Shown piece by piece: positions 21,697 to 54,082 of a DNA stretch of 64,000 bases. A program made the translations under genes and the position numbers. The stretch's first letter is position 1. Every line of letters begins with the position of its first letter. Below the pieces are notes generated by a model, which made no database searches, was not told the origin of the DNA, and was given only the letters and a program-made list of their open reading frames with translations. This DNA is from Anaerolineae bacterium (GTDB taxonomy: Bacteria > Chloroflexota > Anaerolineae > UBA1429), in the NCBI GenBank assembly GCA_034433995.1, contig DAOTZU010000169.1, forward strand, positions 2,109 to 66,108, read 5' to 3'.

Positions 21697-21768
21697 ATCT
21701 GATGCGCACATCTTGAAATCCCTCACGGTGTTGCATATGATAGGGGCAACACTTGTGGGGGGAGCGCC

Positions 21769-22899: not shown

Positions 22900-22903
22900 C
22901 GTC

Positions 22904-25244: not shown

Positions 25245-25460
25245 ATGGCATCCGACGAGCGCATGACCCTGTTGACGGCCAAAGAGGCGGCCAAGTACCT
25301 GCGGGTGAGTCTCTTTACCCTGAGCCGGATCGAGAAGGAGGGACACCTTTTGCCCTTCCGGACGCCAGGGGGGCATCGCCGCTATAGCATCCACATGTTG
25401 AACGAATATTTGGAGCGCAGCCGCCAGGCCGACCGGACCACATCCCCCGCCAAGGCCTAG
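25245..25460 (+). CDS. small helix-turn-helix DNA-binding protein (excisionase/MerR-type HTH_17-like)
   Basis: LLTAKEAAKYLRVSLFTLSRIEKEG; start 25245 after GAGGAG. Confidence 0.6.
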   Translation: MASDERMTLLTAKEAAKYLRVSLFTLSRIEKEGHLLPFRTPGGHRRYSIHMLNEYLERSRQADRTTSPAKA

Positions 25461-25492
25461 AAGGGCCCTGGGGCGGGCGCGAGAGGTGCACC

Positions 25493-29858: not shown

Positions 29859-30989
29859 TCAGGCGGAGCGCAGGAGCTGGCGCACGTGTTCCGGATTATT
29901 GGCCTTGGCCAAGATGTCTTCCAGGGTGACCATGCCGCGACGGTAAAGCTCGATCAGCGCCTGATCTAGGGTCCTCATCCCCAGCCGCTGGCTGGTCTCG
30001 ATGACGCCGGGGAGTTGATGGGTCTTGGCCTCGCGGATGAGATTGCGCACCGCCGGCGAGGCGACCATCACCTCCACCGCTACCACGCGGCCCTTCCCAT
30101 CGGCGGTGGGCAGCAGCGTCTGAGAGAGCACTCCCTCCAGGATCATGGAGAGTTGGATGCGCACCTGTTGTTGCTGGTGCGGCGGAAAGACGTCGATGAT
30201 GCGGTCCACCGTGTTGGCGGCGCCGGCGGTGTGCAGGGTGGAGAGCACCAGGTGGCCCGTCTCGGCGGCGGTGATGGCCGCGGCGATGGTCTCCAGGTCC
30301 CGCATCTCGCCCACCAGGATCACGTCGGGGTCCTGGCGCAAGGCGTGTTTGAGGGCGGAGGCGAAGCTGGGCGTGTCCTCGCCCAGCTCCCGCTGGGTGA
30401 TCATGCTCTGCTTGTCGGTAAAGACGTACTCGATGGGATCTTCGCAGGTGACGATGCGGCAGCGTTGTCGCTCGTTAAGATAGTCAATCATCGCCGCCAG
30501 GGTGGTGGATTTGCCGCTGCCGGTGGGCCCGGTGACGAGGATCAAGCCACGGGGCCGCATGATCAATTCTTTGCACACCGGGGGCAGCAACAAGTCGTCC
30601 AACGTGGGGATGATCATGCTCAGGCGGCGCATGACCATGGTGATGGTGCCCCGTTGTTTGGCCACATTGATGCGAAAGCGGGCCACCCCTTCCAGCTCAT
30701 AGGAGAGATCCAGCTCCAATTCCTGCTCAAAGCGCCGGCGCTGCTCCGGATTGGTCACCTGCTCGTAGAGGCGGGCCAGGTCGGCGGCGCTCAGGGGCTC
30801 GTACTGCGCCTGCACCTGCAGGTCGCCCCGGATGCGCAACACCGGCGGGCTCCCGGCCTTCAGGTGCAGATCTGAGGCGCCCAGGCGCGTCGTCAAGTGC
30901 AAAAGCTCGTCAATGTACACCTCCGCGCTGGGCGTGGGCCGGGCGAAGGTTGTGCGCTGCGTAGGTTGGCGCATGATGGGATCGGACAT
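29859..30989 (-). CDS. pilT: type IV pilus retraction ATPase PilT
   Basis: Walker A GPTGSGKST, PilT-family motifs; start 30989 with GGGGAA upstream. Confidence 0.85.
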   Translation of the reverse strand: MSDPIMRQPTQRTTFARPTPSAEVYIDELLHLTTRLGASDLHLKAGSPPVLRIRGDLQVQAQYEPLSAADLARLYEQVTNPEQRRRFEQELELDLSYELEGVARFRINVAKQRGTITMVMRRLSMIIPTLDDLLLPPVCKELIMRPRGLILVTGPTGSGKSTTLAAMIDYLNERQRCRIVTCEDPIEYVFTDKQSMITQRELGEDTPSFASALKHALRQDPDVILVGEMRDLETIAAAITAAETGHLVLSTLHTAGAANTVDRIIDVFPPHQQQQVRIQLSMILEGVLSQTLLPTADGKGRVVAVEVMVASPAVRNLIREAKTHQLPGVIETSQRLGMRTLDQALIELYRRGMVTLEDILAKANNPEHVRQLLRSA

Positions 30990-31145
30990 GTCCAAATTCC
31001 CCAGATCAGGATGTTGTGCTATCCCCTCGCCTGTAATGGGCCCTGAGGCCAAACAGTCGTTCTCCCCCGCGGTGCGACCAAATCCATGGGCGCGGGACCC
31101 TGCCCGATATATTTGCTCTAGTGAGCCCCTTGTGGGCCGTGGCCT

Positions 31146-31976
31146 CTAACCGGCGAAATACCAGAGCAACAGCCGGCTGCCGTAGAGCATGTACAGGAAG
31201 GTGGTGAGCACCAAAAAGGGCGCAAAAGGGATGGCCGTTTTGCGCCCGGCCAGCCGGGTGATGAGCAGCACGACCCCCACAACCCCTCCCAAAATGAAGG
31301 AGCTGAACACCGCCACCAGCGCCCCCGGAAAGGCGGTGATGAGCCCGGCAAAGGCCGCCAGCTTGACATCGCCGGCCCCCATCCCCTGGGGGGCGATGAG
31401 CCAGATCAGCCAAAAGATGAGAAAGGCGGCCAAGCCTCCCAGCAGCTGGCTCAAGGCCGTCCATTGCGCGATGGACAAACTCGCCATGCCACGGTTGCGT
31501 TGGATCAGCCAAAAGAGGCCCAAGTGGGCGAAGGAAGGCTCCGCCACCAGGGCCTGGATGGGGATGGCCAAAAGGGCCAAGACGATGGCCGGCAAGATGA
31601 CCACGTTCAACACCAATTTGTGCTCCAAGTCGATGACCAGGATGACCAGGAGGAAGCAGGTGTACACCGTGCTCAGCGCCAGTTCCACACTGGGGCCGAA
31701 AAACCAGGCCAGGAAGGCGAAAAGGAGGCCGGTAACCAGTTCCACCAGCAGCACGCGCAAGGGAATGCGCGCCCCGCAGGTGCGGCAACGTCCCCGGAGG
31801 ACGAGATAGCTGACCACAGGCACCAGGTCCCCCGCGGTGAGCTGCCGACCGCACTGGGGACAATGGGAGGGCGGGCGCAGCAGCGATTGCTGGGCGGGCA
31901 GCCGATCCATGACGACGTTCAGGAAGCTGCCCACGATGAGCCCCACCAAGCCATAAAGGGCGCTGAACCACACCAT
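31146..31976 (-). CDS. pilD: prepilin peptidase (A24 family)
   Basis: N-terminal CPxCG Zn-finger-like (HCPQCGRQL...CRTCG), polytopic membrane domain. Confidence 0.85.
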   Translation of the reverse strand: MVWFSALYGLVGLIVGSFLNVVMDRLPAQQSLLRPPSHCPQCGRQLTAGDLVPVVSYLVLRGRCRTCGARIPLRVLLVELVTGLLFAFLAWFFGPSVELALSTVYTCFLLVILVIDLEHKLVLNVVILPAIVLALLAIPIQALVAEPSFAHLGLFWLIQRNRGMASLSIAQWTALSQLLGGLAAFLIFWLIWLIAPQGMGAGDVKLAAFAGLITAFPGALVAVFSSFILGGVVGVVLLITRLAGRKTAIPFAPFLVLTTFLYMLYGSRLLLWYFAG

Positions 31977-31977
31977 G

Positions 31978-32871
31978 CTACACCTTCTTCAGGGCCAGGC
32001 CGAAATTGGTCATGAACTCCATCTCGGGCAATTCCTCCGGGCAGGGAAATGGGGCGACGGCCCGTTCCACGGGGCGGTCAATGGTGGCTTTGAGATAGTC
32101 CCAGGCCTCGCGGGTATTCAGCGAGCGCCCCGCCAAATAGACGGACGTGCTGGGCTGCAACATAGCCTCGCGGTGGCTATCGTTGTAAAAGCGCACCGTC
32201 TGGGTCAGCTCCTCCAACAAGCGTTCGAGCTGGCCCAGGGCATCCAGGCCCTCCTTTTCAAAGGAGAAGGTGCGCATGATGGCCGGCAGATAATCTATGA
32301 CGATGACGATATCCAATAACCCATCCTCCAGGCAGACGATGATCGCCTCCGGTTGGCCTATGGCGCGGATGAGGGCCAACGGTTTGAGGTCCATCACAAA
32401 AGGCGGGATGCCCGCGGCCTGGAGCGCCCGCACCTGGGCCTCAATCATCTCCCTGGGCACCCCCACCACGTAAATGCGCTGTTGGTCGCCCACTCCGGGC
32501 ATGGATTGCCACGCGAGGTAGAGGCTCTCCAAGGAGACGGGCATCTCTTTGCGCGCCTCGCGGGAGATGGCCTCTTCCATCAACGAGGCCTGCAACTTGG
32601 GCAAGGTGAGCAGGCGCGGGATGGAGCGCATGGCGCTCAGGCTCGTGATCACCTGTTTGCGGGGCAGATTGTGGGCGGTAAAGAGGGCATCGAGGATCTT
32701 GCCCATCTCCACGGCGTTGGTGATCAACCCTTCCACCACCAGCCCCGGCGGCAGGTCCACGCTGAGCCAGCGGTCCACCTTGCCGTTGCGCAGGGTGAGC
32801 AGCCGCACATCGGTGGGTTCGATGGCCAGGGTGATCACATCACGGGTTTTGGGCTTGCTGAACAAGGCCAT
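31978..32871 (-). CDS. pilM: type IV pilus assembly protein PilM (actin-like ATPase fold)
   Basis: MALFSKPK...ITLAIEPTDVRLL N-terminus typical of PilM; GGAAGGA RBS. Confidence 0.8.
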   Translation of the reverse strand: MALFSKPKTRDVITLAIEPTDVRLLTLRNGKVDRWLSVDLPPGLVVEGLITNAVEMGKILDALFTAHNLPRKQVITSLSAMRSIPRLLTLPKLQASLMEEAISREARKEMPVSLESLYLAWQSMPGVGDQQRIYVVGVPREMIEAQVRALQAAGIPPFVMDLKPLALIRAIGQPEAIIVCLEDGLLDIVIVIDYLPAIMRTFSFEKEGLDALGQLERLLEELTQTVRFYNDSHREAMLQPSTSVYLAGRSLNTREAWDYLKATIDRPVERAVAPFPCPEELPEMEFMTNFGLALKKV

Positions 32872-32914
32872 GTGCGTTTCCTTCCCCAGGGCTAGGGGCA
32901 TCCCTGCGCCGATT

Positions 32915-34162
32915 TCAAGGGATGCGCAGCCTCATGCCCACGGTGATGCGCGAGCTGGTCAGACCGTTGGCCGCCATGAGGGCCGCCACGGTGGTGCCGA
33001 AGCGTTGGGCGATACTGAACAGGGTATCGCCGGCCTGCACGATATAGATCCTCCCGGGCAGGAGCGGCCCTCCGGGTAGGCCGCCCGGCCACAGCGGCGG
33101 GCTGCCCGCCCAGCCGGCCGGCGGGATGATCAAGCGCTGGTACACATAAAGGCTGTAGGTGGTCAAGCCGTTGGCCAACATGAGCAGGGCGACGGTGGTG
33201 TTGTAGCGTTGGGCGATGGTGTAAAGCGTCTCGCCGGGCATGACCACATGGATCAGGATGTCCGATTGCATGACGGTGGGGATGAACAGCGCCCGGTAAG
33301 CGCGGATGCTGGTGCCAGTCAACCCGTTGGCCGCCATGATGGCCCAGACTGTGGTATTGTACTGGCGGGCGATGGAGTAGAGGGTCTCGCCCGGCTGGAC
33401 GATGTGCACTAATGGCCCCGGTGCCGGGATGCCGCTGGCGGGGATCCAGATCACCGCGCCGGCGCGCAAGAAATAGGTCATCATCCCGTTGGCCTGCATG
33501 ATGGCTTGGACGGTGGTGTTGTAGCGCTTGGCCAGGCTATAGAGCGTATCGCCGGGTTGGACGGTGTAGGTGATGGGCTGGGAGAGGGTGCGTGGCGTGG
33601 GGGTGGGCGTGCTCGGTCCCGGTGTGATGGTGAGGGGGGGCGTGGAGGTGGCGGTGGGCGTGCCCGGCACCGGCGTGGTGCAATACCGCGCCACCAAATC
33701 AAGGCCCATGAGGGCCTCCTCGCCGGTGGGCCTGAGGGACCAAGCCTGGCGGAATTGCTCCAACGACTCGGTGCACTTGTTCTCCGTCAACAGCTTGTAG
33801 CCATAGTTGACATGGGCATAGTAGCGCTTGGCCTGGATGTCGTCATAGTTGGGGTCAATGGCGATGATCTGGCCGATGAGGTTCAACACTTGGGGCCAAT
33901 CCTGGGCGTTCCAGGCGGCGTCGAGCTGCTGCGCCAGGGCTTGCAGGCGCTGCTCGTTGGTGGGCGTGGCCGTGGCCACTTGCAAGGGGTGAAGGGGCAG
34001 TCCCTGGGGCTGCCCTCCCTCGGCTGCCGGCGGTTGGGCGCCGAGGCTCGCCCGCGCCGCCGGCGGCAGCCGGCCGGCCAACGTCCCTTGGGGCAAGAGG
34101 CCGCCGAGAAGGGCCAAGATCAGCAACGCCCTGCCCAAACGTGTCCATCGTCGCCTGCTCAT
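32915..34162 (-). CDS. secreted protein with TPR-like N-region and four LysM peptidoglycan-binding domains
   Basis: Signal peptide; four repeats of YTVQPGDTLYSIAxRYNTTV...ANGL. Confidence 0.75.
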   Translation of the reverse strand: MSRRRWTRLGRALLILALLGGLLPQGTLAGRLPPAARASLGAQPPAAEGGQPQGLPLHPLQVATATPTNEQRLQALAQQLDAAWNAQDWPQVLNLIGQIIAIDPNYDDIQAKRYYAHVNYGYKLLTENKCTESLEQFRQAWSLRPTGEEALMGLDLVARYCTTPVPGTPTATSTPPLTITPGPSTPTPTPRTLSQPITYTVQPGDTLYSLAKRYNTTVQAIMQANGMMTYFLRAGAVIWIPASGIPAPGPLVHIVQPGETLYSIARQYNTTVWAIMAANGLTGTSIRAYRALFIPTVMQSDILIHVVMPGETLYTIAQRYNTTVALLMLANGLTTYSLYVYQRLIIPPAGWAGSPPLWPGGLPGGPLLPGRIYIVQAGDTLFSIAQRFGTTVAALMAANGLTSSRITVGMRLRIP

Positions 34163-34174
34163 CTTTTCGCCCTC

Positions 34175-35317
34175 TTATCTTGGAATCACCAGCCGCTGAC
34201 CCACATATACGGTGGTGCTGCGCAGATCGTTGGCGCGCATGATGGCGCTGACCGTGGTATGGTAGCGGCTGGCGATGGACCACAAGGTATCTCCGGGCCG
34301 CACCACATGGATCAGCACCTCAGGCGTGGGGGTTTTGGTGGGCCCGGCGGTGGGGGAAGGTTTGGCCGTCTGCCCCGGCCGGGTGATGGTGGGCCGCGCC
34401 GCGGGGAGGGTCGGCGTCCCCTGAAGGCCGCGCAACAGCGTCAAGGCCTCCTGGCCGTTGGGCACCAAACGGAGGGCGGCCTCGAAGCGTTGTTGCGCCT
34501 CGGCGCGCCGGCCCTTGGCGGCCAGCTCGCGCCCCCAAGCGAGGTATACCTGATAGAGCTGATACGTCACCTCTTGGTGTTCCGGCTCCTCCTGCAAAAG
34601 GCGCTCCCCCTGGGCCGCCGCGGCCGGCCAATCCTGGGCCGCGATGGCGGCCTGGAAGGATTCCATCAGGCTACCTTGTTGTGCCGGCGTGGCGGTGGGG
34701 GCAGGACTGGGCGTCCCCTGGGCCGGCGCCGGTAGGGTGCCCCGCTCGATGGAATAGACCGCCAGGTCCACATTCCCCGTGAAGGGCCCATCGGGTTTGA
34801 CGATGAGGTTATCCAGCAAAAAGGTCTTGAACGGCCCATCGGCCAGGCGCGCCAAAAAGCGCAACAGCCCCGGCACCTCCCCCCGCGCCTCCACCAGAAA
34901 GCGCTGTACGTTATAGGCCTTCTCGGCCTCCTCCTCCGGCGTCTTGAGCAATGGCTCCAGCCGCGCCAGCCGCACGCCGAAGGTGCTGGCGTATTGGTAA
35001 TACTGGGCCATCTCATCGGCCACCTGTTGCCCGGTGGGCCAACCCGTGGTCAACTGCTGCAGTTGCTGTTGGGCCGCGCCCAGGCGCTGGCGCAGCGTCT
35101 CGGGGGCGGCGGCCTGGACGCGTTGAATCTGGGCGATGGCCTCTTGGGCGGTGTCGTACTCGCTCTGGGCCTCGCTCCGCCGCGAGATGGCACGCACCAG
35201 CGCGCTGAACACCACACCGGAGAGGACCAGTGCCACGATGAGGCTGAGGACGGCTCCCACCACCAGCGGGTTCTTGATCTTGAAGCGCCGAAAAAGATCC
35301 TTGACGTCGGTGTTCAT
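34175..35317 (-). CDS. PilO-like pilus assembly membrane protein with C-terminal TPR-like region and LysM domain
   Basis: Single TM (LVVGAVLSLIVALVL), coiled-coil, PilO-like core, C-terminal LysM (HVVRPGDTLWSIASRYHTTV); ATGA start/stop overlap with upstream giant gene. Confidence 0.5.
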   Translation of the reverse strand: MNTDVKDLFRRFKIKNPLVVGAVLSLIVALVLSGVVFSALVRAISRRSEAQSEYDTAQEAIAQIQRVQAAAPETLRQRLGAAQQQLQQLTTGWPTGQQVADEMAQYYQYASTFGVRLARLEPLLKTPEEEAEKAYNVQRFLVEARGEVPGLLRFLARLADGPFKTFLLDNLIVKPDGPFTGNVDLAVYSIERGTLPAPAQGTPSPAPTATPAQQGSLMESFQAAIAAQDWPAAAAQGERLLQEEPEHQEVTYQLYQVYLAWGRELAAKGRRAEAQQRFEAALRLVPNGQEALTLLRGLQGTPTLPAARPTITRPGQTAKPSPTAGPTKTPTPEVLIHVVRPGDTLWSIASRYHTTVSAIMRANDLRSTTVYVGQRLVIPR

Positions 35318-38300
35318 GGCGTCACCGTCTTGAGCCGCAGTTGCAGGGTGAATTGGATCAGTTGCGCGCCGGGGGCAGCGCCCAAGGGCGCCAATTGGGC
35401 CGCCGGCCGCTCCGGGGGCGCCGCCAGCCCCCACCAGCGCCGCGGGGCCGGCCAGGCTATCCCTTGCAGAAGGGGAGCGCCCTCTCTCCGCCAAGCGACC
35501 GCCTGGGGCTGCCCCAACGGGGCCCAGGCAGTCACTAGCCCCACCTCGTAGGCGCGCAGGTAATATTCCATGGTGGGGCCGAACAGTCCCTTGTTGTAGA
35601 TGGTGATGGTCACCTCGCCGTCGGCGGTCGCCTCAAAGATCACCGCCGAGTTCAGGTAACCCGTGCCGGGCAACGCATCGTCGCTTTGGCAGCCGCTGGG
35701 CTGGCAGTTGTGCACCGGCCCCGTCACCACCAACACGGTATCCACGCCGGGGGTCAGCGGATCGCAGACCAACTGGGTGGGCGAAAAGGGCGTGGTGACG
35801 GTGATGCTGGAACCGGGCTCCAGCCCGTTGCCGCAGGTGACCACCATGTAGCGCCGGCCGGCCTTGACCAAGAGGGTCACCTGGTCCACATCCAGCGCGG
35901 GGTGGAAGGTGTGGCGCTGGGATTCGTTGATGGAAAGATACCGTTTCACCGTGAGGTCCGGCTCGTAGGCGTCACCGCTTTCGGTGCCCAGATCGTCTAC
36001 CTGCAGGACATAGGTCTTGTCCGGCCCGTATTGTCCCTTGTTGGTGACCTGCACCGTCGCCTCAAGGTCGTCCGGGCCGTCGTTCTGCAGCTCCACGTAG
36101 GAGGAGAGATCGCCCGGTATCTTGTCGTCATTGCTGAGGTGGGTTGTGCCCATGTCCACCGTCAACATGGTATCCACGCCGGGGGCCAGATCTCGAGTGT
36201 AGATGCGATAGCGGCGTTCCGCCTTGGCGGTGAAGTAAACCCGATCCACGTCGCCGGGCGGATAAAAGCTCCGCGCCTGCCCCGCGCCGATGGCGATGGG
36301 CACCGGCGCAAGATCATCCACTTCGTAAGCATCGCCGGAGCCGACATCCGTCACCCGCAGGACGTAGGTGCGGTTGGGGCCAAAGAGGCCTTTGTTGGTC
36401 ACGGTGACAAAGGCGGGGGCGTCGGCGCCCGTTTGATTTTGAAACACAACCCTTGAGCTGAGATCCTGGGGCGAGCGATCGTCGCTGGTCCAGACCTGGC
36501 TGCCCAGGCGCACGGTGAGGACGCTATCGGCGCCCGTGGCCAGGGCGGTGGTCTCCACGGCGTAGGAATAGCCGGCTTTGGCGGTAAAGACCACCTGGTC
36601 CACATCGCCCGCGGGGCAGAAGGTGCGTGGCTGCTCCTCGTTCACCCCCATCACGCGGGCCACGGCATCGTCCGGTTCAAAGGCATCGCCGCAATCGAGG
36701 GTTGGAGTGGAGCTGGGGCCGGGCGTCGCCGTCGGTCCAGGGGTGAACAGCGGTGTGGGCGTAGCGGTGGTGCGGGTCAAATCGGGCGTAGGGGTGCGCA
36801 CCACACCCAAGAACTCGACCACCAGGGTGTAGGTCTTGTCCGGCCCATATTGGCCGTTGTTGGTCACCAAGACGGTGGCTTGGACGTCGCTAGCCCCGTC
36901 GTTCTGCAACTCCACATAAGATGAGAGATCGCCCGGCTGGCGGTCGTCGTTGCGGAGCTGGAGGGCGCCCATATTCACCGTGAGGACCGTATCCACGCCG
37001 GGGGCCAGGCCCTGGGTATAGATGCGGTAGCGGTGGTTGACCTTGGCCACAAAATAGACCCGATCCACATCGCCGGGCGGGTAAAAACTGCGCGCCTGGC
37101 CGATGCCAAAGGCGATGGGCACGGGGGAGAGGTCATCCACCTCGTAGGCATCGCCGGTGCCCGCGTCGGACACCTTGAACTTGTAGGTGCGATTTTGGCC
37201 AAAAAGGCCCTTGTTGGTGATGGTGATAAAGGCGGGAGCATCGCGGCCCGATTGGTTCTGGAAGATGATCTTGGAGCTGAGATCCTGGGGCGAGCGGTCG
37301 TCGCTGGTCCAGGATTGACCGCCCAAGAGCACGGTGACCACCGTATCCACACCGGGGGCCAGGTCATAGGTTTCCACGATGTAGGAATAGCCGGCCTTGG
37401 CGGTAAAGACGGCCTTGTCCACATCCCCGTTGGGACAAAAGTTGCGTCCCTGTTCCTGGTTCACCACCGCCAGGCGGCCCACGATATCATCCGGCTCGTA
37501 ACTATCGCCGCAAAAGACGGTGGGCGTGGGGCCGGGGGTAAGGGGCTGGCGGGTGAGATCGCGGGTGGGCGTGCCGGCCAGCTCGCGCAGCGTGAGCCAA
37601 TATTCCTTATCCACCCCATACTCGCCCCGGTTGGTGAGGGTGGCGATGGCCACACCGTCGCGGGAGGGGGTGAGGATCACCCGCGAGGCATAATCGCCGG
37701 GGGCGATGTCATCGTTCCGGAGGGTTTGCCCCTCCACCAGCACCTCCAACACCGTATCCACGCCCAAGGTGAGGCTGTACGTCTTGACCTCGTACACCCG
37801 CCCCGCCTTGACGGGGAAATAGACCCGGTCTACATCGCCCAAGGGGAAGAAGGTATGGCGCTGGCCCTCGTAAGGCGAGAGGGGCCGCGGGGTCTGGTCA
37901 TCCGGCTCGTAGGCATCACCCCCCGCCTCCAAGAGTTGCAGGGTGTAGGTTTTATCCACGCCATAGAGGCCCTTGTTGGTGATGGTGACCTGGGCCGTCC
38001 CATCGGCGTTGGCCTTGAAGAGGAGGCGCGAGGAGGGATCGCCGGAGGCGGCGTCATCGTTCTGCTGGGTGACGCCATCCACCTGCACCACGATGACCGT
38101 ATCCACCCCCAGGGCCAAGTTGGTGGTGCGCAATTCGTAGGCGTGCCCCGCCTTGACGGGGAAATAGACCCGGTCCACATCGCCGGCGGGGTAGAAAGAG
38201 CGGGCCTGGGCCTCGCCGATGGCGATGGGTTTGGGGGTTTGGTCGTCGCGCTCGTACGCGTCGCCGGTGGCCTCATAGACCGCCAGGGTGTACCACTTGT

Positions 38301-39294
38301 CTGGCCCGTATTGGCCGCGATTGCTGACCCGCACCCGCACCTGTTGGTCGGTGGCGCCGGGGATCTGGATCTCCACCAGGGAGGCCAAGCTGCCCGTCAC
38401 CGTCCCTGTGGGGCAGGCGCAGGCGAGCAAGGTCGCCTCGCCGGGGTGGCAATCGTCGTTAGTCAAGCCCGCACCGGCGACGGTGACCTCTAGAAAAGTA
38501 TCCACCCCGATGGCCTGGGGCAACGCCTGGATGCAATAGCGCCGGCCGGCCTTGCCCAAAAAGATCACCTGGTCCACATCGCCGGGGGGGTTAAAGTTGT
38601 GCCATTGCACCTCGCCCAGGACGATGGCGGTGGCTTGAAAATCATCGGTCTCGTAGGCATCGTAGGGGCTGGCGGTGGGCGTGGGGGTGACTTGGGCCGT
38701 GGGCGCCATGGTCAAGGTTAGAACCGCCGTACCGGTTACGGTGGCCGCGGCGGTGGGCGTGGGCAAGGTAAAGCTCTCCATGGATTGGACGATGACCTGT
38801 TCAAAGACGCCGGACCGATCCAGGGCGTTGGCGTAGCTGAGGACGTCGTCCTCGCTGAGGGCCAGGCCGCCGACGGTGAGGGTGTTGCGATCTTGGAAGA
38901 GGTCGGTCAGGCTGAGCCGCTGACGGTCATAGTTGAGCAACGCCTCGACGATGGCCGTCCAATCGCGCTGTTTGGCGGCGAGGGAGGGCTGCAGGGTCTG
39001 GATGACGGTGATGGCCCGCAGCGTGCGGCTGAGCTCGTCGGTCATCTGGATCATCTCTGGGGCGGGCGTGCGCATGGTTTTGAGGGCGCGCTGGGCCTGT
39101 TGGGCCTTGAGCTCCAGTTGCTCTGCCTGGGAGGTGTTGACGCTCAGCAGGACCAGCCCGAGCACCGTCAGCACGACCAGGCCGATGGATACGCCCCAGA
39201 GCAATTTGGCCATGGGCGGCACCACCCGCGGCCGGTATTGGGGCGGCAAGATATTCAGGTCAATTGGGCCAGGCGCTGGTGGTTTTGGCGGCAT
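35314..39294 (-). CDS. giant PilN-like protein: N-terminal PilN membrane/coiled-coil module fused to about eight pre-peptidase C-terminal (PPC)-like beta-sandwich repeats
   Basis: N-terminus LNILPPQYRP + TM + coiled-coil (PilN hallmark); then eight repeats of DAYEPDD...GDVDRVYF..KAG..Y......GVDTVL.V.....NDD...........T.TN.G.YG....Y.L.V. Confidence 0.65.
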   Translation of the reverse strand: MPPKPPAPGPIDLNILPPQYRPRVVPPMAKLLWGVSIGLVVLTVLGLVLLSVNTSQAEQLELKAQQAQRALKTMRTPAPEMIQMTDELSRTLRAITVIQTLQPSLAAKQRDWTAIVEALLNYDRQRLSLTDLFQDRNTLTVGGLALSEDDVLSYANALDRSGVFEQVIVQSMESFTLPTPTAAATVTGTAVLTLTMAPTAQVTPTPTASPYDAYETDDFQATAIVLGEVQWHNFNPPGDVDQVIFLGKAGRRYCIQALPQAIGVDTFLEVTVAGAGLTNDDCHPGEATLLACACPTGTVTGSLASLVEIQIPGATDQQVRVRVSNRGQYGPDKWYTLAVYEATGDAYERDDQTPKPIAIGEAQARSFYPAGDVDRVYFPVKAGHAYELRTTNLALGVDTVIVVQVDGVTQQNDDAASGDPSSRLLFKANADGTAQVTITNKGLYGVDKTYTLQLLEAGGDAYEPDDQTPRPLSPYEGQRHTFFPLGDVDRVYFPVKAGRVYEVKTYSLTLGVDTVLEVLVEGQTLRNDDIAPGDYASRVILTPSRDGVAIATLTNRGEYGVDKEYWLTLRELAGTPTRDLTRQPLTPGPTPTVFCGDSYEPDDIVGRLAVVNQEQGRNFCPNGDVDKAVFTAKAGYSYIVETYDLAPGVDTVVTVLLGGQSWTSDDRSPQDLSSKIIFQNQSGRDAPAFITITNKGLFGQNRTYKFKVSDAGTGDAYEVDDLSPVPIAFGIGQARSFYPPGDVDRVYFVAKVNHRYRIYTQGLAPGVDTVLTVNMGALQLRNDDRQPGDLSSYVELQNDGASDVQATVLVTNNGQYGPDKTYTLVVEFLGVVRTPTPDLTRTTATPTPLFTPGPTATPGPSSTPTLDCGDAFEPDDAVARVMGVNEEQPRTFCPAGDVDQVVFTAKAGYSYAVETTALATGADSVLTVRLGSQVWTSDDRSPQDLSSRVVFQNQTGADAPAFVTVTNKGLFGPNRTYVLRVTDVGSGDAYEVDDLAPVPIAIGAGQARSFYPPGDVDRVYFTAKAERRYRIYTRDLAPGVDTMLTVDMGTTHLSNDDKIPGDLSSYVELQNDGPDDLEATVQVTNKGQYGPDKTYVLQVDDLGTESGDAYEPDLTVKRYLSINESQRHTFHPALDVDQVTLLVKAGRRYMVVTCGNGLEPGSSITVTTPFSPTQLVCDPLTPGVDTVLVVTGPVHNCQPSGCQSDDALPGTGYLNSAVIFEATADGEVTITIYNKGLFGPTMEYYLRAYEVGLVTAWAPLGQPQAVAWRREGAPLLQGIAWPAPRRWWGLAAPPERPAAQLAPLGAAPGAQLIQFTLQLRLKTVTP
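36004..37506. repeat. intragenic tandem duplication (two ~0.7-0.8 kb units, period 819 bp) encoding a two-PPC-domain module
   Basis: Nearly identical 32-nt strings at 36462 and 37281; protein units DSYEPDD...TYTLVV and DAFEPDD...TYVLQV are co-linear. Confidence 0.6.
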
Positions 39295-39385
39295 AGGTTC
39301 CTTTGCGCAGCAAGGGCCAGAGCCGAGACTCTGGCCCCATTGTAACATATCTTGCTGTAGCTGTCATCCGTGGCAATGGGGGCGT

Positions 39386-40543
39386 TTAGCGGGTGATGAA
39401 CCAGGAGAGGAGCTGCATGGCCCCGTCCTCGCAAAGGCGCACCCGCGCCCGGGTGATGGTGCCGCCGGCGGTGGCTTCGATGTCGAAATCCTTGCAGCCC
39501 TCGTCCTCGCCGGCCATGGGGGGCGGCTGTATGGTGAGCCCCTCGCCGCAGAGATCCACCGAATCGCCCACAAAGGCGCCGGCCATGGCGCCGGAACCGC
39601 TCACGCGGATCATCCCGTTGGGGGCATAAACGTAACCCCGCACCATGGAGACGCCGCTCCCGCTGATCTGGATCACCGGCTGGGAGCAACGCGCCGAGCC
39701 GGTGTAGGCCGCCGGCGTGAAAAAGGCCAGATTATCCACATAGGGATGCAGGTCATAGCCGGAGCCGATGATTTCGATGGTGCCCAAGGCCACAAAGGTG
39801 GCCGTGCCGCTGAAGCTGTTGCCGTTGATCTTTAGATTGCCGGTGATATAGTACAGCCCGTCAAAGACGGTGCCGCTTTCGTTGACCGTATAGTTGCCCT
39901 CGATCCGGTGGTAGCGGCCCTCTTGTTGGGCAGCGTAGGCTGCCGTGCCCACAGCGTTGGGGTTGTTGTAATCATCGAGGGTGAACAACGGGGGCAAGAT
40001 CGTCACCGGCACCTGAATGGGGCTGGCCGGCGGGGGCGGGTTAAAGGTCACTTGGCCCTCGCCGCTGACCTCGGTGACGTACTCGACGATGCCGTTGATG
40101 ATGGTATCGGCCCCGCGGATGCGCATATCCCGGTTGGTGTGGACGTTGCCGTACAGCCGGTTATGGGCGCCCGTCCAATCCAACACGGAGGAACAGGTGG
40201 TGCTGTTGCCCCACAGAGTATAGTTGAAGGACCAAGAAACGGGCGCCACGCGCAGGGTGACCGGTAACCGGTTGACCGTGTCGGGCAGGGTCAGCTGCAC
40301 GCCTGAGGCGCCGCTCTGCTTCACCGTCTCGCGCCAGGCGGCATCGTGGCGCAGTCGCCAGAGGGCGTATTCCGCCCCCGCCTCGGAGGCGTACTGGGCG
40401 TGGAGCGCTCCCTCGTGGCGCAGGGTGGCCTTTTGCGCCGTGGCCACATGGCCCAAAAGGGGCACCAGGAGCAACGTCCCCACCATCAGGGCCACCAGCG
40501 CGTGGGGCAACGTGTTTCCCTGTTCCCTCGCGAGAGACGTCAT
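39386..40543 (-). CDS. pilus-associated protein, PilX/TadG-like N-terminus with GSG-repeat beta-rich C-domain (paralog 2)
   Basis: N-terminal TM, conserved YASEAGAEYALWRLRHDAAWRE block, repeated I(S/T)GSG motifs; ATGA overlap with upstream paralog. Confidence 0.5.
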   Translation of the reverse strand: MTSLAREQGNTLPHALVALMVGTLLLVPLLGHVATAQKATLRHEGALHAQYASEAGAEYALWRLRHDAAWRETVKQSGASGVQLTLPDTVNRLPVTLRVAPVSWSFNYTLWGNSTTCSSVLDWTGAHNRLYGNVHTNRDMRIRGADTIINGIVEYVTEVSGEGQVTFNPPPPASPIQVPVTILPPLFTLDDYNNPNAVGTAAYAAQQEGRYHRIEGNYTVNESGTVFDGLYYITGNLKINGNSFSGTATFVALGTIEIIGSGYDLHPYVDNLAFFTPAAYTGSARCSQPVIQISGSGVSMVRGYVYAPNGMIRVSGSGAMAGAFVGDSVDLCGEGLTIQPPPMAGEDEGCKDFDIEATAGGTITRARVRLCEDGAMQLLSWFITR

Positions 40544-41742
40544 GATGAGCCCACCTGCCAGGAGAGCACCTGCCAATCGCCGTCGCCGCACCCTCGCATC
40601 CGCACTGTCGTGACCGTCGAGCCGGAGGTGGACCGGATGTCATAGACGCCACAGACGATGCTGCTGCCGCCGCTGCCCGGCAGTTCCACCTCGGCCAGGT
40701 TGATGGTGGCCCCCGAACCGTTGATATCGATCTCGTTGCCCAAGAAGGCGCCGGTGATCACCCCGCCGGAGCCGGTGAGAGAGATCTTGCCATTGGGGGC
40801 AAAGACCGTCCCGCCGGTGTTGCCCGAACCGCTGATGCTGACCACGTTGGTGCTGGCCGCGCGGGTGCTGAAAAAGCTCAGGCCGGGCACGTAGGGCGTG
40901 AAATCCAGCCCCGAGCCGCTGACATCGATGGTGGACAAGGAGACCACGGTCACATTGTATCCCCGCAGGCCCGAGCCGGAAAAGTTGACTTTGCCGGTGC
41001 AATAGTGCAGACCCTCCGGGATCACCGTGCCGGAGCCGGTGATGTTCCATGTGCCATTATGGACGTAATATTTCCCCTCGGCCTGGGCTCGGGCTGCCCA
41101 GCTGCCGGGTTGGTTGGGATCGTTGAACTCGTTGATATCCCAGGTGATGGGAAAAGGCTGGACGGTGGTCTGCACGGCCGGGCCCGGCACGATGCGGTTG
41201 CCCGAACCCAAAATGGTCAGGTTGCGCACATATTCCGCTGTGCCGTAGATGGTGTGGCCCGAACCGTTGATCTTGAGATCGCGGTTGCTGTGCACGCCGC
41301 CGTTGACGGTGTGCCCCGATCCGCCGATGACCAAGCCGTTGGTGGCGGTGCTGCTCTGGGCCCAGAGGGCCCATTCCAGGCATTCTGGCTCGCCGCCCCC
41401 GCCGCCAGCCTGGGTCTCGGTCTCGACGCACACCACCTCCACGGTGGGGGTATCTCCGTTGGGGGCGCTGGGCAGGGTCAAGGAGGCCACGGTGCCCGGC
41501 TGGTCCAGCAGAGTTTGCCGCCAAGCCGCGTCGTGGACCAGCTTCCAGAGGGCGAATTCCACGCCGGCATCGCTGGAATATTGCCGCTGCAGGGTGGTCT
41601 GGGTTGCCGCCGTCGTCTTCAGGCTGGTGCTCAGATGGGCCAGGAGCGGCCCGATCAAAATGATCCCCGTGGCTAAGGCGAGCAAGGCCAGGGGCAAGGA
41701 CTCGCCGCGTTCCTCTTGCCGGAATGTTGCTCTGTGCTTCAT
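40540..41742 (-). CDS. pilus-associated protein, PilX/TadG-like (paralog 1)
   Basis: Collinear similarity to 39386..40543 product (YSSDAGVEFALWKLVHDAAWRQ; GSG repeats); GAGGGAG RBS. Confidence 0.5.
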   Translation of the reverse strand: MKHRATFRQEERGESLPLALLALATGIILIGPLLAHLSTSLKTTAATQTTLQRQYSSDAGVEFALWKLVHDAAWRQTLLDQPGTVASLTLPSAPNGDTPTVEVVCVETETQAGGGGGEPECLEWALWAQSSTATNGLVIGGSGHTVNGGVHSNRDLKINGSGHTIYGTAEYVRNLTILGSGNRIVPGPAVQTTVQPFPITWDINEFNDPNQPGSWAARAQAEGKYYVHNGTWNITGSGTVIPEGLHYCTGKVNFSGSGLRGYNVTVVSLSTIDVSGSGLDFTPYVPGLSFFSTRAASTNVVSISGSGNTGGTVFAPNGKISLTGSGGVITGAFLGNEIDINGSGATINLAEVELPGSGGSSIVCGVYDIRSTSGSTVTTVRMRGCGDGDWQVLSWQVGSS

Positions 41743-41755
41743 GGGAAGATCTCCC

Positions 41756-42274
41756 TCACTGGGAAAGGCGCCGGGTGATGGTCAGCGTCATGCTGCGGCT
41801 GCCCCGGCGGGCCAGGGCGCTGGTCAAGGTGATGCGCACGGTGGTGCTGATCTGGGTCCCTTGCAGCGGCTCGATCTGCCAGGAGCTGATGTGCCGGGCC
41901 ACGGTGACCGAGCTGCTCCCGCCCGCGCCCGAGGTGGTGCGCACCAAATTGCCCCCCACCAGGCTGTAGGTGACGGTGGTGACCTGCGCCGATCCCGTTT
42001 GTCCAAAGGGGTAGGAGGGGATGTTCAGAGTCAATGTGGTGCCGTCAAAAGTGCCCTCCGAGGCGCCCACCACATCCCGGTTGAGGAGCACGCCGGCGGT
42101 CTGGAGCTGTTGGCTCAGCGTCAGCGAGTCCTGCTGCAGGCGGGTGAGGTTGTTAAATTGATACAGCATCACCACCAACGCCCCCAGGAGCAGCGCCGTG
42201 ATGGCGGTGGAGATCATGGTCTCCACCAGGGTGAATCCGTTTTGGCCCGTGCCGAGGAGCAAGCGCTTTTTCAT
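41756..42274 (-). CDS. prepilin-type N-terminal cleavage/methylation domain protein (minor pilin-like)
   Basis: GFTLVETMISTAITALLLGALVVML class-III signal peptide. Confidence 0.7.
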   Translation of the reverse strand: MKKRLLLGTGQNGFTLVETMISTAITALLLGALVVMLYQFNNLTRLQQDSLTLSQQLQTAGVLLNRDVVGASEGTFDGTTLTLNIPSYPFGQTGSAQVTTVTYSLVGGNLVRTTSGAGGSSSVTVARHISSWQIEPLQGTQISTTVRITLTSALARRGSRSMTLTITRRLSQ

Positions 42275-42675
42275 GGCCGATCCACCTTGTAATCCTCTAA
42301 GGCAAAGAGCAACTTGCCGTTTTCATAGACCTTGACCAGGATCTTTTGCATCCCGTTATCCGTGGCCGGCGGCGAACCGGAGAAGGTCTGGGTGGCCGAG
42401 AGCCAGTAGGTCACCTCCACCGAATGGGTGTAGAGGCTGGAGGGTTGGATGGTGGGGTACGGCTGGGCCGTCGGGTTGGCCCGATACTCGGCCTGTTTGA
42501 TCAGCTCCATCTGCTGCCGGGCATAGTTTTCGGCGCTGATGCGCTCTTCCACCAAAGCCACGCTCCCGCTGGAGGTGGAAAGCCCGCTGAGCATGATGAG
42601 GAGCGCCGCGCCGACGATGGCCAGCGTCACCAAGTCGCCCACCAGAGAACCGCCCCGTTGATCTTGTAACATCAT
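42271..42675 (-). CDS. pilin/pseudopilin-like protein with hydrophobic N-terminal helix
   Basis: ORF 42271..42795; start MMLQDQRGGSLVGDLVTLAIVGAALLIM at 42675 with AAGGTGG RBS. Confidence 0.6.
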   Translation of the reverse strand: MMLQDQRGGSLVGDLVTLAIVGAALLIMLSGLSTSSGSVALVEERISAENYARQQMELIKQAEYRANPTAQPYPTIQPSSLYTHSVEVTYWLSATQTFSGSPPATDNGMQKILVKVYENGKLLFALEDYKVDRP

Positions 42676-42802
42676 GGGAACCACCTTCTTGCTTATAAAA
42701 CCACCCGCAAAAACGCCGGTTTTTGTCGTCCAGCGCCCGCGAGGGGCTGGGCACCCGGCGGACCGCAAGACCTGTGCCCGCCGGATGCGCCCCAAAAGCG
42801 GG

Positions 42803-44005
42803 TTACTTGATCGAACCCATGAGCGAGTACATGGGCATGATCACCGCCACAGCCACAAAGCCCACCACCGCGCCGATAAAGAGGGTGAGGGCCGGCTCCA
42901 CCGCCCCGGCCATGGCCGCCACGGCCCGGTCCACCTCCTCTTCGTAAAAGATGGCCAGGGTCTCCATGTTGGAATCCAGGGCGCCGGTCTCTTCGCCCAC
43001 CCGCACCATCTGCACCAGCATCCCCGGAAAGATCTTTTGCTGGGCTAAAGGATCGGCCAGGCCGCGGCCCTGCAAAAGGTCGCGGCGCACGCCCTCCAAG
43101 GCGGCCCTGATGACCCGGTTGCTCTGGGTGCGGATGATCATCTCGATGATCTCCGGCAGGGCCAACCCCGCCCGCAGCAGGGCGGACATGGAGCGACACA
43201 TCCGCGCCACCGCCCCTTGGATCGTCACCCGTTTGATGAGGGGGATCTTGAGCAAGGCCCGGTCAAAGAACCAATGCCCTGCCTCCGAGCGGAAGAAAAG
43301 CACCCCCGCGCTGCCCACCAGCACCAGCGTGCCCAGGAGATGGAACTTGTAGGTGGAGGCGAAATCGGTGATGGCGATGAGGATGCGGGTGGGCAGGGGT
43401 AACTCCGCGCCGAAGGAGGTGAACAGGCCCATCAGGGGCGGCAGGGCCACGGTGAGCATCAAAAAGACCACGCCCACCGCCAACAAAAGCACAAAGGAGG
43501 GATAGGCCATGGCGCTGCGGATCTTGCGCACCAGGGCCTCTTCTTTCTCCATGTAAATGGCCAGTTGCCGCAGCACCATCTCCAAATTACCGGTGCGCTC
43601 GCCCACCTCGATCAACCGAGCATAGAGGTTGGAAAAGATCTTTTTGTGTTTCGAGATGGCCTCGGAGAGGAAACGGCCCTGCTGCAGGTCGAGGATGATC
43701 TCGCCCAACACCTGGCGCAGACGCTTGTTGCTGGTCTGTTCCTGCAACAGTTGGATGGCGCGAACGATGGGGATGCCCGATTCGATCAGTGTGGCCAATT
43801 GCCGGGAAAAGATGATCAGATCCCGGGTGCGCACCTTGGGGCTGAACAAGGAGACCCCGCCGTTTGTCTCCTGGGTCTCCTTGAGAGAGATGATGGTATA
43901 GTTCAGCTTCCACAGGAGCTCCTCGGCCACTTTCTCCGAGGCCGCCTCGATGCGGCCTTGGATCATTTCTCCTTTAGGCGTATACGCGATGTAATGGTAT
44001 GCCAT
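42803..44005 (-). CDS. pilC: type IV pilus inner-membrane platform protein PilC (GspF family)
   Basis: Two GspF-type repeats; start MAYHYIAYTPKGE at 44005. Confidence 0.85.
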   Translation of the reverse strand: MAYHYIAYTPKGEMIQGRIEAASEKVAEELLWKLNYTIISLKETQETNGGVSLFSPKVRTRDLIIFSRQLATLIESGIPIVRAIQLLQEQTSNKRLRQVLGEIILDLQQGRFLSEAISKHKKIFSNLYARLIEVGERTGNLEMVLRQLAIYMEKEEALVRKIRSAMAYPSFVLLLAVGVVFLMLTVALPPLMGLFTSFGAELPLPTRILIAITDFASTYKFHLLGTLVLVGSAGVLFFRSEAGHWFFDRALLKIPLIKRVTIQGAVARMCRSMSALLRAGLALPEIIEMIIRTQSNRVIRAALEGVRRDLLQGRGLADPLAQQKIFPGMLVQMVRVGEETGALDSNMETLAIFYEEEVDRAVAAMAGAVEPALTLFIGAVVGFVAVAVIMPMYSLMGSIK

Positions 44006-44019
44006 GGTCACCCACTCCC

Positions 44020-45930: not shown

Positions 45931-46429
45931 GGTCTCATCTCGATGGACATTAAAGGCTATACCGGCCATGGGCCTTGCCGGCTAACGAAATCTAACAGTT
46001 TCTGCTCTTATCATACCGGATCGTGGGCGGCGGGGCATAAAAAGTACATTAATCCAGCGCTTTTGGCGCGGGGAGGGGGCTAAATTTGGCCTAAAGGAGA
46101 ACACACCCGCTTCGCCCTCGGCGCTCGGAGGTATCCCCAGAAAGATGCCGGGGCTGCGCCTGGCGGGTGGCGCGCCACCGCCGTGGCGCGCTCGCGGATT
46201 TACGCTTCATTTACCCCACTTTGACCCACGCTTTACGGATGCCTATAGGGGCTGTGCTATGATGTGGCCAGAATAAGCTCAGGATAGACGACGATAGCAT
46301 CGCAGCAGCAGTGAGGCCAGCAGGCAAGGAGGTAAGGAGGCAAGATCAGAAGACGAGGTCAGAGTTGCGGCACATGGCAATGCGTGTGGCATCGGGCATT
46401 ATTCTTAGCACTAAACGGAGGTAACGAAA

Positions 46430-51657: not shown

Positions 51658-51790
51658 GGAAGACCACCTCAGATTATCTCACGGGTATTATACACCATAA
51701 ACGTGAGCGATGTCATTTGGGGCCACGAGGTCGCCCTTTCCCGCATGGAGCCGCGGCGCGATAAGCGCGCACGTTCTCCGCGTGTGGCGG

Positions 51791-54061: not shown

Positions 54062-54082
54062 GGTTCCCTCCCAATAAGCGTT

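What the first reader, a model, noticed from the sequence alone, without database searches (positions are those of the whole stretch)
36004..37506. Recent 819-bp tandem duplication inside the giant PilN-like gene
Two adjacent DNA units with high identity encode co-linear two-domain modules (DSYEPDD... and DAFEPDD...). Period is exactly 819 bp (273 codons); the strings gatcctggggcgagcg(a/g)tcgtcgctggtccag occur at 36462 and 37281. Such in-frame long tandem repeats promote RecA-dependent expansion or contraction. This suggests the length of the extracellular stalk may vary between strains or cells, and it is a likely assembly-collapse hotspot.
Basis: seen in the sequence. Interest (0 to 1): 0.55.

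Follow-up and report, generated by a model that had tools for sequence, protein, structure and literature searches.

The report
Old two-domain duplication in PilN-like gene
A giant type IV pilus assembly gene of a Chloroflexota bacterium carries an in-frame tandem copy of a two-domain module, but the copies are long diverged (about 75% DNA identity), so this is ordinary domain-repeat evolution, not a recent or unstable repeat.

Summary
The repeat is real. On the minus-strand gene 35314..39294, 36011-36718 matches 36830-37537 without gaps at an offset of exactly 819 bp (273 codons). Each unit encodes two beta-sandwich domains, and the quoted strings are at 36462 and 37281.

"Recent" and "high identity" are not supported:
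- Identity is 75.7% for DNA and 72% for protein.
- dS is at least 0.86, dN 0.20, dN/dS 0.23.
- Third-codon-position identity (56-66%) is close to that of the old paralogous domains in the same gene.
- The longest exact shared run is 23 nt, which is what chance gives at this identity.

RecA-driven copy-number change and assembly collapse are therefore unlikely.

About 20 close homologues (Anaerolineae/Chloroflexota MAGs) have six domains, 1-2-3-X-Y-8. This gene has eight, with X-Y twice. The two copies are sisters in a domain tree (bootstrap 0.79), so the duplication is lineage-specific but old, and both copies are under purifying selection. Domain number across the family ranges from 3 to 10, with several independent internal duplications. 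Length therefore varies between lineages; strain-level variation could not be tested.

Side observation: a family-wide conserved C-terminal strand appears to complete the PilN fold. The domain array would then be an insertion (a loop) in PilN, not a free stalk.

The parts
35314..39294 (-). Whole gene: PilN-like protein with eight PPC-like beta-sandwich domains (1326 aa from ATG 39294; the mechanical ORF starts at 39348)
   Evidence: ORF, translation. Pfam PilN 24.9 bits (cut-off 22.8) and PPC 28.9 bits (cut-off 25.9). Homologue N-termini read MPPKPP..IDLNILP. There is an AAGGA 8 nt upstream of ATG 39294. The NCBI cluster member P0069 is 1326 aa.
38773..39294 (-). PilN part: cytoplasmic IDLNILP motif, one hydrophobic transmembrane stretch, a helical segment, and the first part of the PilN core (Pfam profile positions 13-61 of 78)
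   Evidence: The motif and the hydrophobic stretch are read directly from the translation.
37570..38661 (-). Beta-sandwich domains 1, 2 and 3 (not duplicated; orthologous to domains 1-3 of the six-domain homologues)
37507..37569 (-). Linker 1 (PTRDLTRQPLTPGPTPTVFCG), Pro/Thr-rich and ending in a conserved Cys-Gly. It is homologous to the single domain 3-to-X linker of the homologues.
36799..37506 (-). Repeat unit 1: domains 4 (X1, 37153-37506) and 5 (Y1, 36799-37152)
   Evidence: The ungapped DNA homology runs 36830-37537.
36688..36798 (-). Linker 2 (RTPTPDLTRTTATPTPLFTPGPTATPGPSSTPTLDCG), the duplicated copy of linker 1 and 16 codons longer
35974..36687 (-). Repeat unit 2: domains 6 (X2, 36334-36687) and 7 (Y2, 35974-36333)
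   Evidence: The ungapped DNA homology runs 36011-36718. The AlphaFold2 model of this unit has mean pLDDT 89.4 and shows two beta-sandwiches.
35533..35973 (-). Domain 8, a larger Cys-rich variant that is orthologous to the last domain of the homologues
35317..35370 (-). Conserved extreme C-terminal strand (..GAQLIQFTLQLRLKTVTP), probably the last strand of the PilN core. It follows a tail of about 54 aa (35371-35532) that was not modelled here; the equivalent segment of homologue P0057 is predicted disordered.
   Evidence: The motif is conserved in nearly all family members. The splice test extends the Pfam PilN match to positions 74-77 of 78 in 7 of 8 proteins, and in 0 of 6 reversed controls. 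In homologue P0057 the equivalent strand has pLDDT of about 95, next to more than 100 residues with pLDDT 30-45.

Best explanation
An ancestral six-domain array (1-2-3-linker-X-Y-8) in a Chloroflexota PilN-like pilus assembly protein underwent one in-frame tandem duplication of the segment [Pro/Thr linker + domain X + domain Y], about 260-270 codons. This happened in the lineage of this organism, after it split from all sampled relatives. The event is old. Synonymous sites are near saturation, the linker has since gained or lost 16 codons, and both copies have been kept under purifying selection. Each copy retains the conserved acidic motifs and the Cys pair, so both are working domains of a now eight-domain extracytoplasmic array. 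The repeat no longer behaves as a recombination substrate. It is a fixed structural lengthening of the array, one of several independent expansions and contractions in this protein family.

Shown: the repeat geometry, the divergence, the selection regime, the six-domain norm, the sister relationship, and the beta-sandwich fold.

Inferred: the duplication mechanism (unequal crossing-over or slippage between neighbouring homologous domains), the present lack of instability, and the functional meaning (a longer envelope-spanning part of the pilus alignment complex).
For: - Ungapped identity at offset 819 is 75.7% over 708 nt.
- Protein identity is 72%, dN 0.20, dS 0.86, dN/dS 0.23. Differences by codon position are 50/39/93.
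- Third-position identity is 56-66%, against 38-60% for old paralogous pairs and 37% random expectation.
- The longest exact run of 23 nt is not longer than chance predicts (P = 0.21).
- About 20 close homologues have exactly six domains in the order 1-2-3-X-Y-8 and lengths of 1035-1115 aa, which is the query minus about 273 aa.
- Each query X or Y domain has its paralogue as nearest neighbour (69% and 75%), and the orthologues follow at 63-69%.
- In a neighbour-joining tree of X+Y modules the two query modules are sisters, with bootstrap 0.79.
- Both linkers resemble the single domain 3-to-X linker of the homologues (PTPDLTR..TPGP..DCG).
- Other family members show independent internal duplications: P0056 84%, P0052 79%, P0046 and P0032 77% protein identity between domains.
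- The unit folds as two beta-sandwiches. The best PDB match is the tandem collagen-binding domains of ColG, 5iku, E 2.7e-10. A single domain matches 1nqd with TM 0.80 and rmsd 2.0.
- A 100% identical protein occurs in a second public record: a JGI contig of 12.6 kb, besides the NCBI contig of 66 kb.
Against: - Bootstrap support for the sister relationship is moderate (0.79), and the margin over the orthologues is small.
- An older duplication that was homogenised by ancient gene conversion, with parallel loss in relatives, is not strictly excluded.
- No close relative (same species or genus) was found, so neither the age in taxonomic terms nor present-day copy-number stability could be observed.
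- The two public records may derive from the same reads, so they are not proven independent assemblies.
- NG86 underestimates dS under the strong GC3 bias here (82% G+C at third positions). The true age is only bounded from below.
Confidence: 0.85

Rival explanations
1. One reading: a recent, high-identity tandem duplication that still expands and contracts by RecA-dependent unequal recombination. This would give stalk-length variation between strains or cells and would cause assembly collapse.
For: The repeat is tandem, in frame and long (819 bp). Domain number does vary in the family.
Against: - dS is at least 0.86, and third-position identity is near that of old paralogues.
- The longest exact match is 23 nt and is explained by chance.
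- dN/dS of 0.23 shows long independent evolution of both copies.
- No shared k-mer of 24 or more exists between the units, so assemblers cannot collapse them.
- From established knowledge, homologous recombination needs about 20-30 bp of perfect identity and falls steeply with divergence.
Confidence: 0.04
2. The eight-domain form is ancestral or much older. The X-Y pair was duplicated before the sampled lineages split, the six-domain relatives lost one copy, and the sisterhood of the two query copies reflects past gene conversion (concerted evolution).
For: - Bootstrap for the sisterhood is only 0.79.
- The paralogue distance (0.35) is not far below the orthologue distances (0.44-0.50).
- Losses and gains are clearly frequent in the family.
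Against: - It needs many parallel losses, since about 20 six-domain homologues lie in several well-supported clades.
- Divergence is fairly even along the unit, with no long identical tracts.
- The extra domains of the other expanded members (P0002, P0017) do not group with either query copy.
Confidence: 0.08
3. Assembly artefact: the second unit is a chimeric join of reads from two strains or two related genomes, not a true tandem copy.
For: The source is evidently a metagenome-assembled contig; all homologues come from MAGs or metagenomes.
Against: - The reading frame is kept perfectly over 1326 codons.
- The junctions fall in a linker that is homologous to the natural domain 3-to-X linker.
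- The two units are as far from each other as from different genera, so they are not strain variants.
- The identical protein is present in a second record.
- Other family members have independent expansions.
Confidence: 0.03

Closest known systems
Canonical PilN of the type IVa pilus alignment subcomplex (PilM-PilN-PilO-PilP; Pfam PF05137)
   Same: It has an N-terminal cytoplasmic I-D/N-L-N-I-L-P motif, a single membrane-spanning stretch, and a helical segment followed by the PilN core, which passes the Pfam cut-off. The gene lies in a cluster with PilB, PilC, pilins, PilM, PilD and a PilT-like ATPase.
   Different: Canonical PilN is about 200 aa. Here roughly 1100 aa (eight beta-sandwich domains plus Pro/Thr linkers) lie between the part of the core matching profile positions 13-61 and a C-terminal strand matching positions about 62-77. 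pilM is not adjacent, no secretin gene is seen in the cluster, and the neighbours carry LysM domains.
Tandem collagen-binding domains s3a-s3b of Hathewaya histolytica collagenase ColG (PDB 5iku, 1nqd); Pfam PPC, PF04151
   Same: The fold is the same: 5iku E 2.7e-10 for the two-domain unit, and 1nqd TM 0.80, rmsd 2.0 A for one domain. By my own knowledge of ColG, the acidic motifs E-P-(N/D)-D near the domain start and D-x-D before strand 2 sit where ColG binds calcium.
   Different: Sequence identity is only 13-16%. No single domain here reaches the PPC gathering score (best 21.3 against 25.9). The domains are part of a pilus assembly protein, not a secreted protease. Calcium binding was not tested.
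Repeat-number-variable surface proteins with near-identical long tandem repeats (for example the alpha C/Rib proteins of group B streptococci and SasG/Aap of staphylococci; own knowledge)
   Same: Both have long in-frame tandem repeats that encode whole folded domains in an extracytoplasmic array.
   Different: Those repeats are nearly identical in DNA, and their copy number changes between and within strains. Here there are two copies, 24% diverged, with no long identical tracts.
PilN/PilO with a PilO-LysM fusion, proposed as an envelope-spanning scaffold in the Chloroflexota member Litorilinea aerophila (PMC13319060)
   Same: Same phylum. A LysM-bearing membrane protein is encoded next to pilN (34175-35317, translationally coupled). 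The proposed role is to bridge a thick multilayered envelope without a secretin.
   Different: That paper does not describe beta-sandwich arrays in PilN, and its system serves an archaellum. No paper in the library holds both 'PilN' and 'pre-peptidase C-terminal'.

Membership tests
Unstable (recombination-prone) long tandem repeat | Near-identical repeat units at the DNA level (typically above 95%) | tested here: not met
   Ungapped DNA identity is 75.7% and dS is 0.86.
Unstable (recombination-prone) long tandem repeat | Stretches of perfect identity well above the minimal length for RecA-mediated exchange (about 20-30 bp) | tested here: not met
   The longest exact runs are 23, 20 and 17 nt, which is no more than chance predicts at this identity (P = 0.21).
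Unstable (recombination-prone) long tandem repeat | Copy number differs between closely related strains or within a population | not testable with these tools
   No relative above about 54% protein identity was found in the protein, genome or metagenome collections, and no reads are available. Only family-level variation is seen, from 3 to 10 domains.
PilN (PF05137) | The PilN core domain is recognised above the curated threshold | tested here: met
   The whole protein scores 24.9 bits and the N-terminal part alone 28.0 bits, against a cut-off of 22.8. The score rises to 34.2 bits when the C-terminal strand is spliced on.
PilN (PF05137) | N-terminal cytoplasmic PilM-binding motif (INLLP-like) followed by one transmembrane helix | tested here: met
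   PIDLNILPPQYRPR is followed by LLWGVSIGLVVLTVLGLVLL in the translation. The motif is conserved in the homologues. Binding to PilM itself was not tested.
PilN (PF05137) | Encoded within a type IV pilus gene cluster together with pilM and a pilO-like partner | tested here: inconclusive
   PilB, PilC, pilin, PilM, PilD and PilT-like genes are present. The adjacent membrane protein has LysM and TPR hits but no PilO hit in Pfam. pilM lies two genes downstream rather than directly upstream.
PPC / collagen-binding-domain fold (PF04151) | Sequence match above the Pfam gathering score | tested here: inconclusive
   The whole protein scores 28.9 bits against 25.9. Scanned singly, the best domain reaches 21.3 bits, and the duplicated domains reach 14.6 bits or give no hit.
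PPC / collagen-binding-domain fold (PF04151) | Beta-sandwich fold superposable on solved PPC/CBD domains | tested here: met
   The model has mean pLDDT 89.4. It matches 5iku at E 2.7e-10 and 1nqd_A with TM 0.80, rmsd 2.0 A over 114 columns.
PPC / collagen-binding-domain fold (PF04151) | Calcium binding by the N-terminal acidic motif | not testable with these tools
   E4, P5, D6, D28 and D30 are invariant and D7 is at least 90% conserved in the module alignment. Their equivalence to the ColG calcium ligands rests on memory, not on a test. A profile search of PDB sequences gave no ColG hit.

The most novel reading that the evidence does not exclude
In this Chloroflexota family the beta-sandwich array is not a C-terminal stalk. 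It is a giant insertion inside the PilN core fold, with the last PilN strand supplied by the extreme C-terminus. Each PilN subunit would then project a long, possibly calcium-stiffened loop of 3-10 domains. Together with the LysM-bearing partners, these loops would form a palisade around the pilus that replaces the secretin/PilP part of the machine in a thick multilayered envelope. Domain number, including the X-Y duplication here, would be tuned to envelope thickness.
Probability: 0.3. Interest if true: 0.55.

Novelty: new member of a known kind. Interest (0 to 1): 0.22.

Why it matters
As posed, the finding matters little. It is a fixed, ancient internal domain duplication of the kind common in multi-domain surface proteins. 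It is neither a contingency locus nor an assembly hazard, and downstream analyses need not treat 36.0-37.5 kb as unreliable.

The value lies in the context. The work defines a six-domain ground plan and recurrent gain and loss of domains in a poorly described PilN family of Chloroflexota. It also suggests that the array is inserted into the PilN fold. If that holds, it offers a concrete hypothesis for how pili cross a secretin-less multilayered envelope.

Tried and rejected
- Tandem Repeats Finder found nothing, because its period limit is 500.
- A scan of metagenome contigs with the protein found no relative.
- A scan of genome contigs gave only two distant loci at 46% identity, so no strain-level comparison was possible.
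- Exact look-ups of the encoding contig failed for both the 1299-aa and the 1326-aa forms.
- Sequence searches of the PDB were uninformative. The spliced PilN part gave only a chance hit to GspD, and the module profile gave only a chance hit to FliY.
- YN00 dN/dS failed with a math domain error, so only NG86 is reported.
- The predicted models cannot be read as coordinates. Contact between the C-terminal strand and the PilN core is therefore inferred from pLDDT and the Pfam splice test, not observed.
- I looked for a relation between domain number and the length of the disordered tail, by eye. None was apparent: 3 domains go with about 128 aa, 8 domains with about 57 aa, and 10 domains with about 104 aa. 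I did not pursue it.
- I considered and rejected recent gene-conversion patches. The longest identical run is within chance.
Full report
**The observation**

The region lies inside one long minus-strand ORF, 35314..39348 (1344 codons). Its translation begins with a PilN-like N-terminus. Eight modules follow, each opening with D[AS][YF]ExD, at aa 230, 363, 478, 615, 733, 888, 1006 and 1126.

Sliding the sequence against itself by 819 bp gives 70-80% identity from about 36010 to 36720, and 25-35% elsewhere. The best ungapped segment is 36011-36718 against 36830-37537, at 75.7% over 708 nt. The peptide starts DSYEPDD and DAFEPDD are 273 codons apart.

So the geometry is as described: tandem, in frame, two domains per unit. 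The identity level is not. 'High identity' really means about 75% DNA identity and 72% protein identity.

**Age of the duplication**

- Differences by codon position are 50/39/93 over 236 codons. NG86 gives dN 0.20, dS 0.86 and dN/dS 0.23.
- Third positions are 82% G+C, so random identity there is already 37%. The two X domains share 66% at third positions and the two Y domains 56%. Anciently diverged domain pairs of the same gene share 38-60%. Synonymous sites are therefore close to saturation.
- The longest exact runs shared by the units are 23, 20 and 17 nt. Permuting matches within codon positions gives a mean longest run of 19.6, and a run of at least 23 in 21% of trials. I see no trace of recent gene conversion.
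- The Pro/Thr-rich linker preceding each unit differs by 16 codons, 21 aa against 37 aa.

**Comparison with relatives**

A protein search returned 68 relatives, mostly from Anaerolineae/Chloroflexota MAGs. The best non-self hit has about 50-54% identity. I built a profile from the eight query domains, cut every homologue into domains, and assigned each domain to its most similar query domain.

- About 20 of the closest homologues (1035-1115 aa) have exactly six domains in the order 1-2-3-X-Y-8. That is the query minus one 273-codon unit.
- The query, and the identical record P0001, has 1-2-3-X-Y-X-Y-8.
- Others have 10 (P0002), 7 (P0012, P0013, P0017), 5 (P0027, P0029), or 3-5 domains in the more distant members.

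Each query X or Y domain has its own paralogue as nearest neighbour (69% and 75%), and the orthologous domains follow at 63-69%. In a neighbour-joining tree of X+Y modules the two query modules are sisters with bootstrap 0.79. Their distance is 0.35, against 0.44-0.50 to the nearest orthologues.

Both linkers resemble the single domain 3-to-X linker of the homologues (PTPDLTR...TPGP...DCG). The duplicated segment was therefore [linker + X + Y].

Independent internal duplications of similar or younger age occur elsewhere in the family. P0056 domains 2 and 3 are 84% identical. P0052 reaches 79%, and P0046 and P0032 reach 77%.

Conclusion: this is a lineage-specific but old duplication, with both copies maintained by purifying selection. 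It is one instance of recurrent gain and loss of domains in the family.

From established knowledge, RecA-mediated exchange needs about 20-30 bp of perfect identity and falls steeply with divergence. Two units 24% diverged, with a single 23-nt identical run, are a very poor substrate. No k-mer of 24 or more is shared, so assemblers at k = 33 or 55 cannot collapse the units.

A protein 100% identical over 1299 aa exists in a second record: a JGI contig of 12.6 kb, besides an NCBI contig of 66 kb that carries the 1326-aa form. Independence of the two assemblies is not proven.

Length variation is supported between lineages. It could not be tested between strains, because no close relative was found.

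**What the gene is**

Pfam recognises PilN (24.9 bits, cut-off 22.8) and PPC (28.9 bits, cut-off 25.9).

The gene start is most likely ATG 39294:
- The homologues begin MPPKPP..IDLNILP.
- An AAGGA lies 8 nt upstream.
- The NCBI form is 1326 aa.

The stop codon overlaps the ATG of the next gene (ATGA at 35314-35317).

The surroundings form a type IV pilus cassette on the minus strand:

| Product | Window coordinates |
|---|---|
| PilB with a receiver domain | 44020-45969 |
| PilC | 42803-44023 |
| Pilin-like protein | 41756-42274 |
| DUF7305 paralogue | 40540-41742 |
| DUF7305 paralogue | 39386-40591 |
| The PilN-like gene | 35314-39294 |
| Membrane protein with TPR and LysM | 34175-35317 |
| Protein with four LysM domains | 32915-34162 |
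| PilM | 31978-32901 |
| PilD | 31146-31976 |
| PilT-like ATPase | 29859-31052 |

No secretin is seen in the cluster. The downstream half (LysM, 4xLysM, PilM, PilD, PilT-like) is syntenic in a five-domain relative, L002.

**The fold of the unit**

An AlphaFold2 model of unit 2, built with 19 aligned modules, has mean pLDDT 89.4 and shows two beta-sandwiches. Foldseek against the PDB ranks the tandem collagen-binding domains of ColG first (5iku, E 2.7e-10). A single domain superposes on 1nqd_A with TM 0.80 and rmsd 2.0 A.

Scanned singly, none of the eight domains reaches the PPC gathering score; the best is domain 2 at 21.3 bits. I therefore call them PPC-like. E4, P5, D6, D28 and D30 are invariant, and D7 and C24 are at least 90% conserved. 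A Cys in the linker precedes every X domain. All of these are retained in both copies. Their role in calcium binding and disulfide formation is inference from what I know of ColG.

**A side result on topology**

Nearly every family member ends with a conserved motif, (V/I)xF(V/T)LxLxLK..P. The Pfam PilN match in the N-terminal part stops at profile position 57-61 of 78. I joined the last 18 residues directly to the N-terminal part and scanned again.

| Protein | N-terminal part (bits; last profile position) | With true C-terminus | With reversed C-terminus |
|---|---|---|---|
| Query | 28.0; 61 | 34.2; 77 | 28.8; 63 |
| P0010 | 26.7; 59 | 27.6; 62 | 26.9; 59 |
| P0026 | 23.0; 60 | 26.3; 74 | 23.9; 61 |
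| P0047 | 29.3; 57 | 31.6; 74 | 29.2; 57 |
| P0053 | 17.1; 59 | 25.8; 76 | 18.1; 63 |
| P0057 | 25.2; 59 | 29.9; 75 | 25.1; 59 |
| P0016 | 17.0; 60 | 21.5; 77 | not run |
| P0039 | 22.1; 60 | 24.9; 74 | not run |

The true C-terminus extended the match to position 74-77 and raised the score by 2.3-8.7 bits in 7 of 8 proteins. The reversed control extended none of 6 and gained at most 1.0 bit.

In an AlphaFold2 model of the three-domain homologue P0057, the C-terminal strand 751-760 has pLDDT of about 95, although residues 621-748 are predicted disordered at pLDDT 30-45. The coordinates are not readable here, so packing of the strand on the PilN core is inferred, not seen.

If this is right, the array is an insertion (a loop) in the PilN fold, not a free stalk, and the X-Y duplication lengthens that loop.

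**Literature**

A 2026 paper on Litorilinea aerophila (Chloroflexota) describes a PilO-LysM fusion. It proposes PilN/PilO as a scaffold through a multilayered envelope without a secretin (PMC13319060). No paper in the library contains both 'PilN' and 'pre-peptidase C-terminal'.

**Verdict**

The tandem in-frame module and lineage-level length variation hold. Recency, instability and assembly hazard do not.
- The finding itself is ordinary, so interest is low.
- The most novel reading not excluded concerns the architecture of the whole protein family, not the repeat.

Noticed in passing
window 35317-35370 and 38773-39294; homologues P0002-P0058: A family-wide conserved extreme C-terminal strand, (V/I)xF(V/T)LxLxLK..P, seems to complete the PilN core fold. 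The whole beta-sandwich array would then be an insertion within PilN. The Pfam splice test was positive in 7 of 8 proteins and in 0 of 6 reversed controls. In the model of P0057 the strand has pLDDT of about 95 next to a disordered tail.
   Followed up: partly
window 39294 / 39348 and 35314-35317: The gene start is probably ATG 39294 (AAGGA 8 nt upstream, homologue N-termini, and the 1326-aa NCBI form), not the first ATG at 39348. The JGI record P0001 starts at Met46 and so lacks the conserved IDLNILP motif. The stop TGA overlaps the ATG of the downstream gene (ATGA), so that gene is 34175..35317 and not ..35494.
   Followed up: yes
window 32915-35317: Two LysM-bearing proteins lie directly downstream of the PilN-like gene: a membrane protein with TPR and one LysM, and a protein with four LysM domains. 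The arrangement is syntenic in L002. It recalls the PilO-LysM fusion reported for Litorilinea aerophila (PMC13319060). Pfam gives no PilO hit.
   Followed up: partly
window 44020-45969: The PilB-type assembly ATPase (T2SSE plus MshEN) carries an N-terminal response-regulator receiver domain. This suggests direct phosphorelay control of pilus extension.
   Followed up: no
window 39386-41742: Two adjacent paralogous genes of about 400 aa have weak or borderline DUF7305 hits and internal short direct repeats (families D12 and D19). They lie between the pilin-like genes and the PilN-like gene. They may be minor-pilin or tip proteins.
   Followed up: no
window 29859-45969: No secretin (PilQ) or PilP gene is seen in the pilus cluster. 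This is consistent with a secretin-less machine.
   Followed up: partly
homologues P0056, P0052, P0046, P0032, P0002: Other family members carry independent internal domain duplications, some younger than the one here: P0056 domains 2 and 3 are 84% identical in protein. P0002 has ten domains. P0032 and P0046 show a two-domain period (domain 2 against domain 4, 77%).
   Followed up: partly
window 50032-51657: This ORF fuses an N6/N4 DNA methylase domain with a C-terminal Mrr-like restriction endonuclease domain.
   Followed up: no
window 19354-22836, 22829-24277, 25457-26959, 51710-54280: These large ORFs (1160, 482, 500 and 856 aa) have no Pfam hit at E 1e-5. It was not checked whether they are real genes; several overlap long ORFs on the opposite strand.
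   Followed up: no
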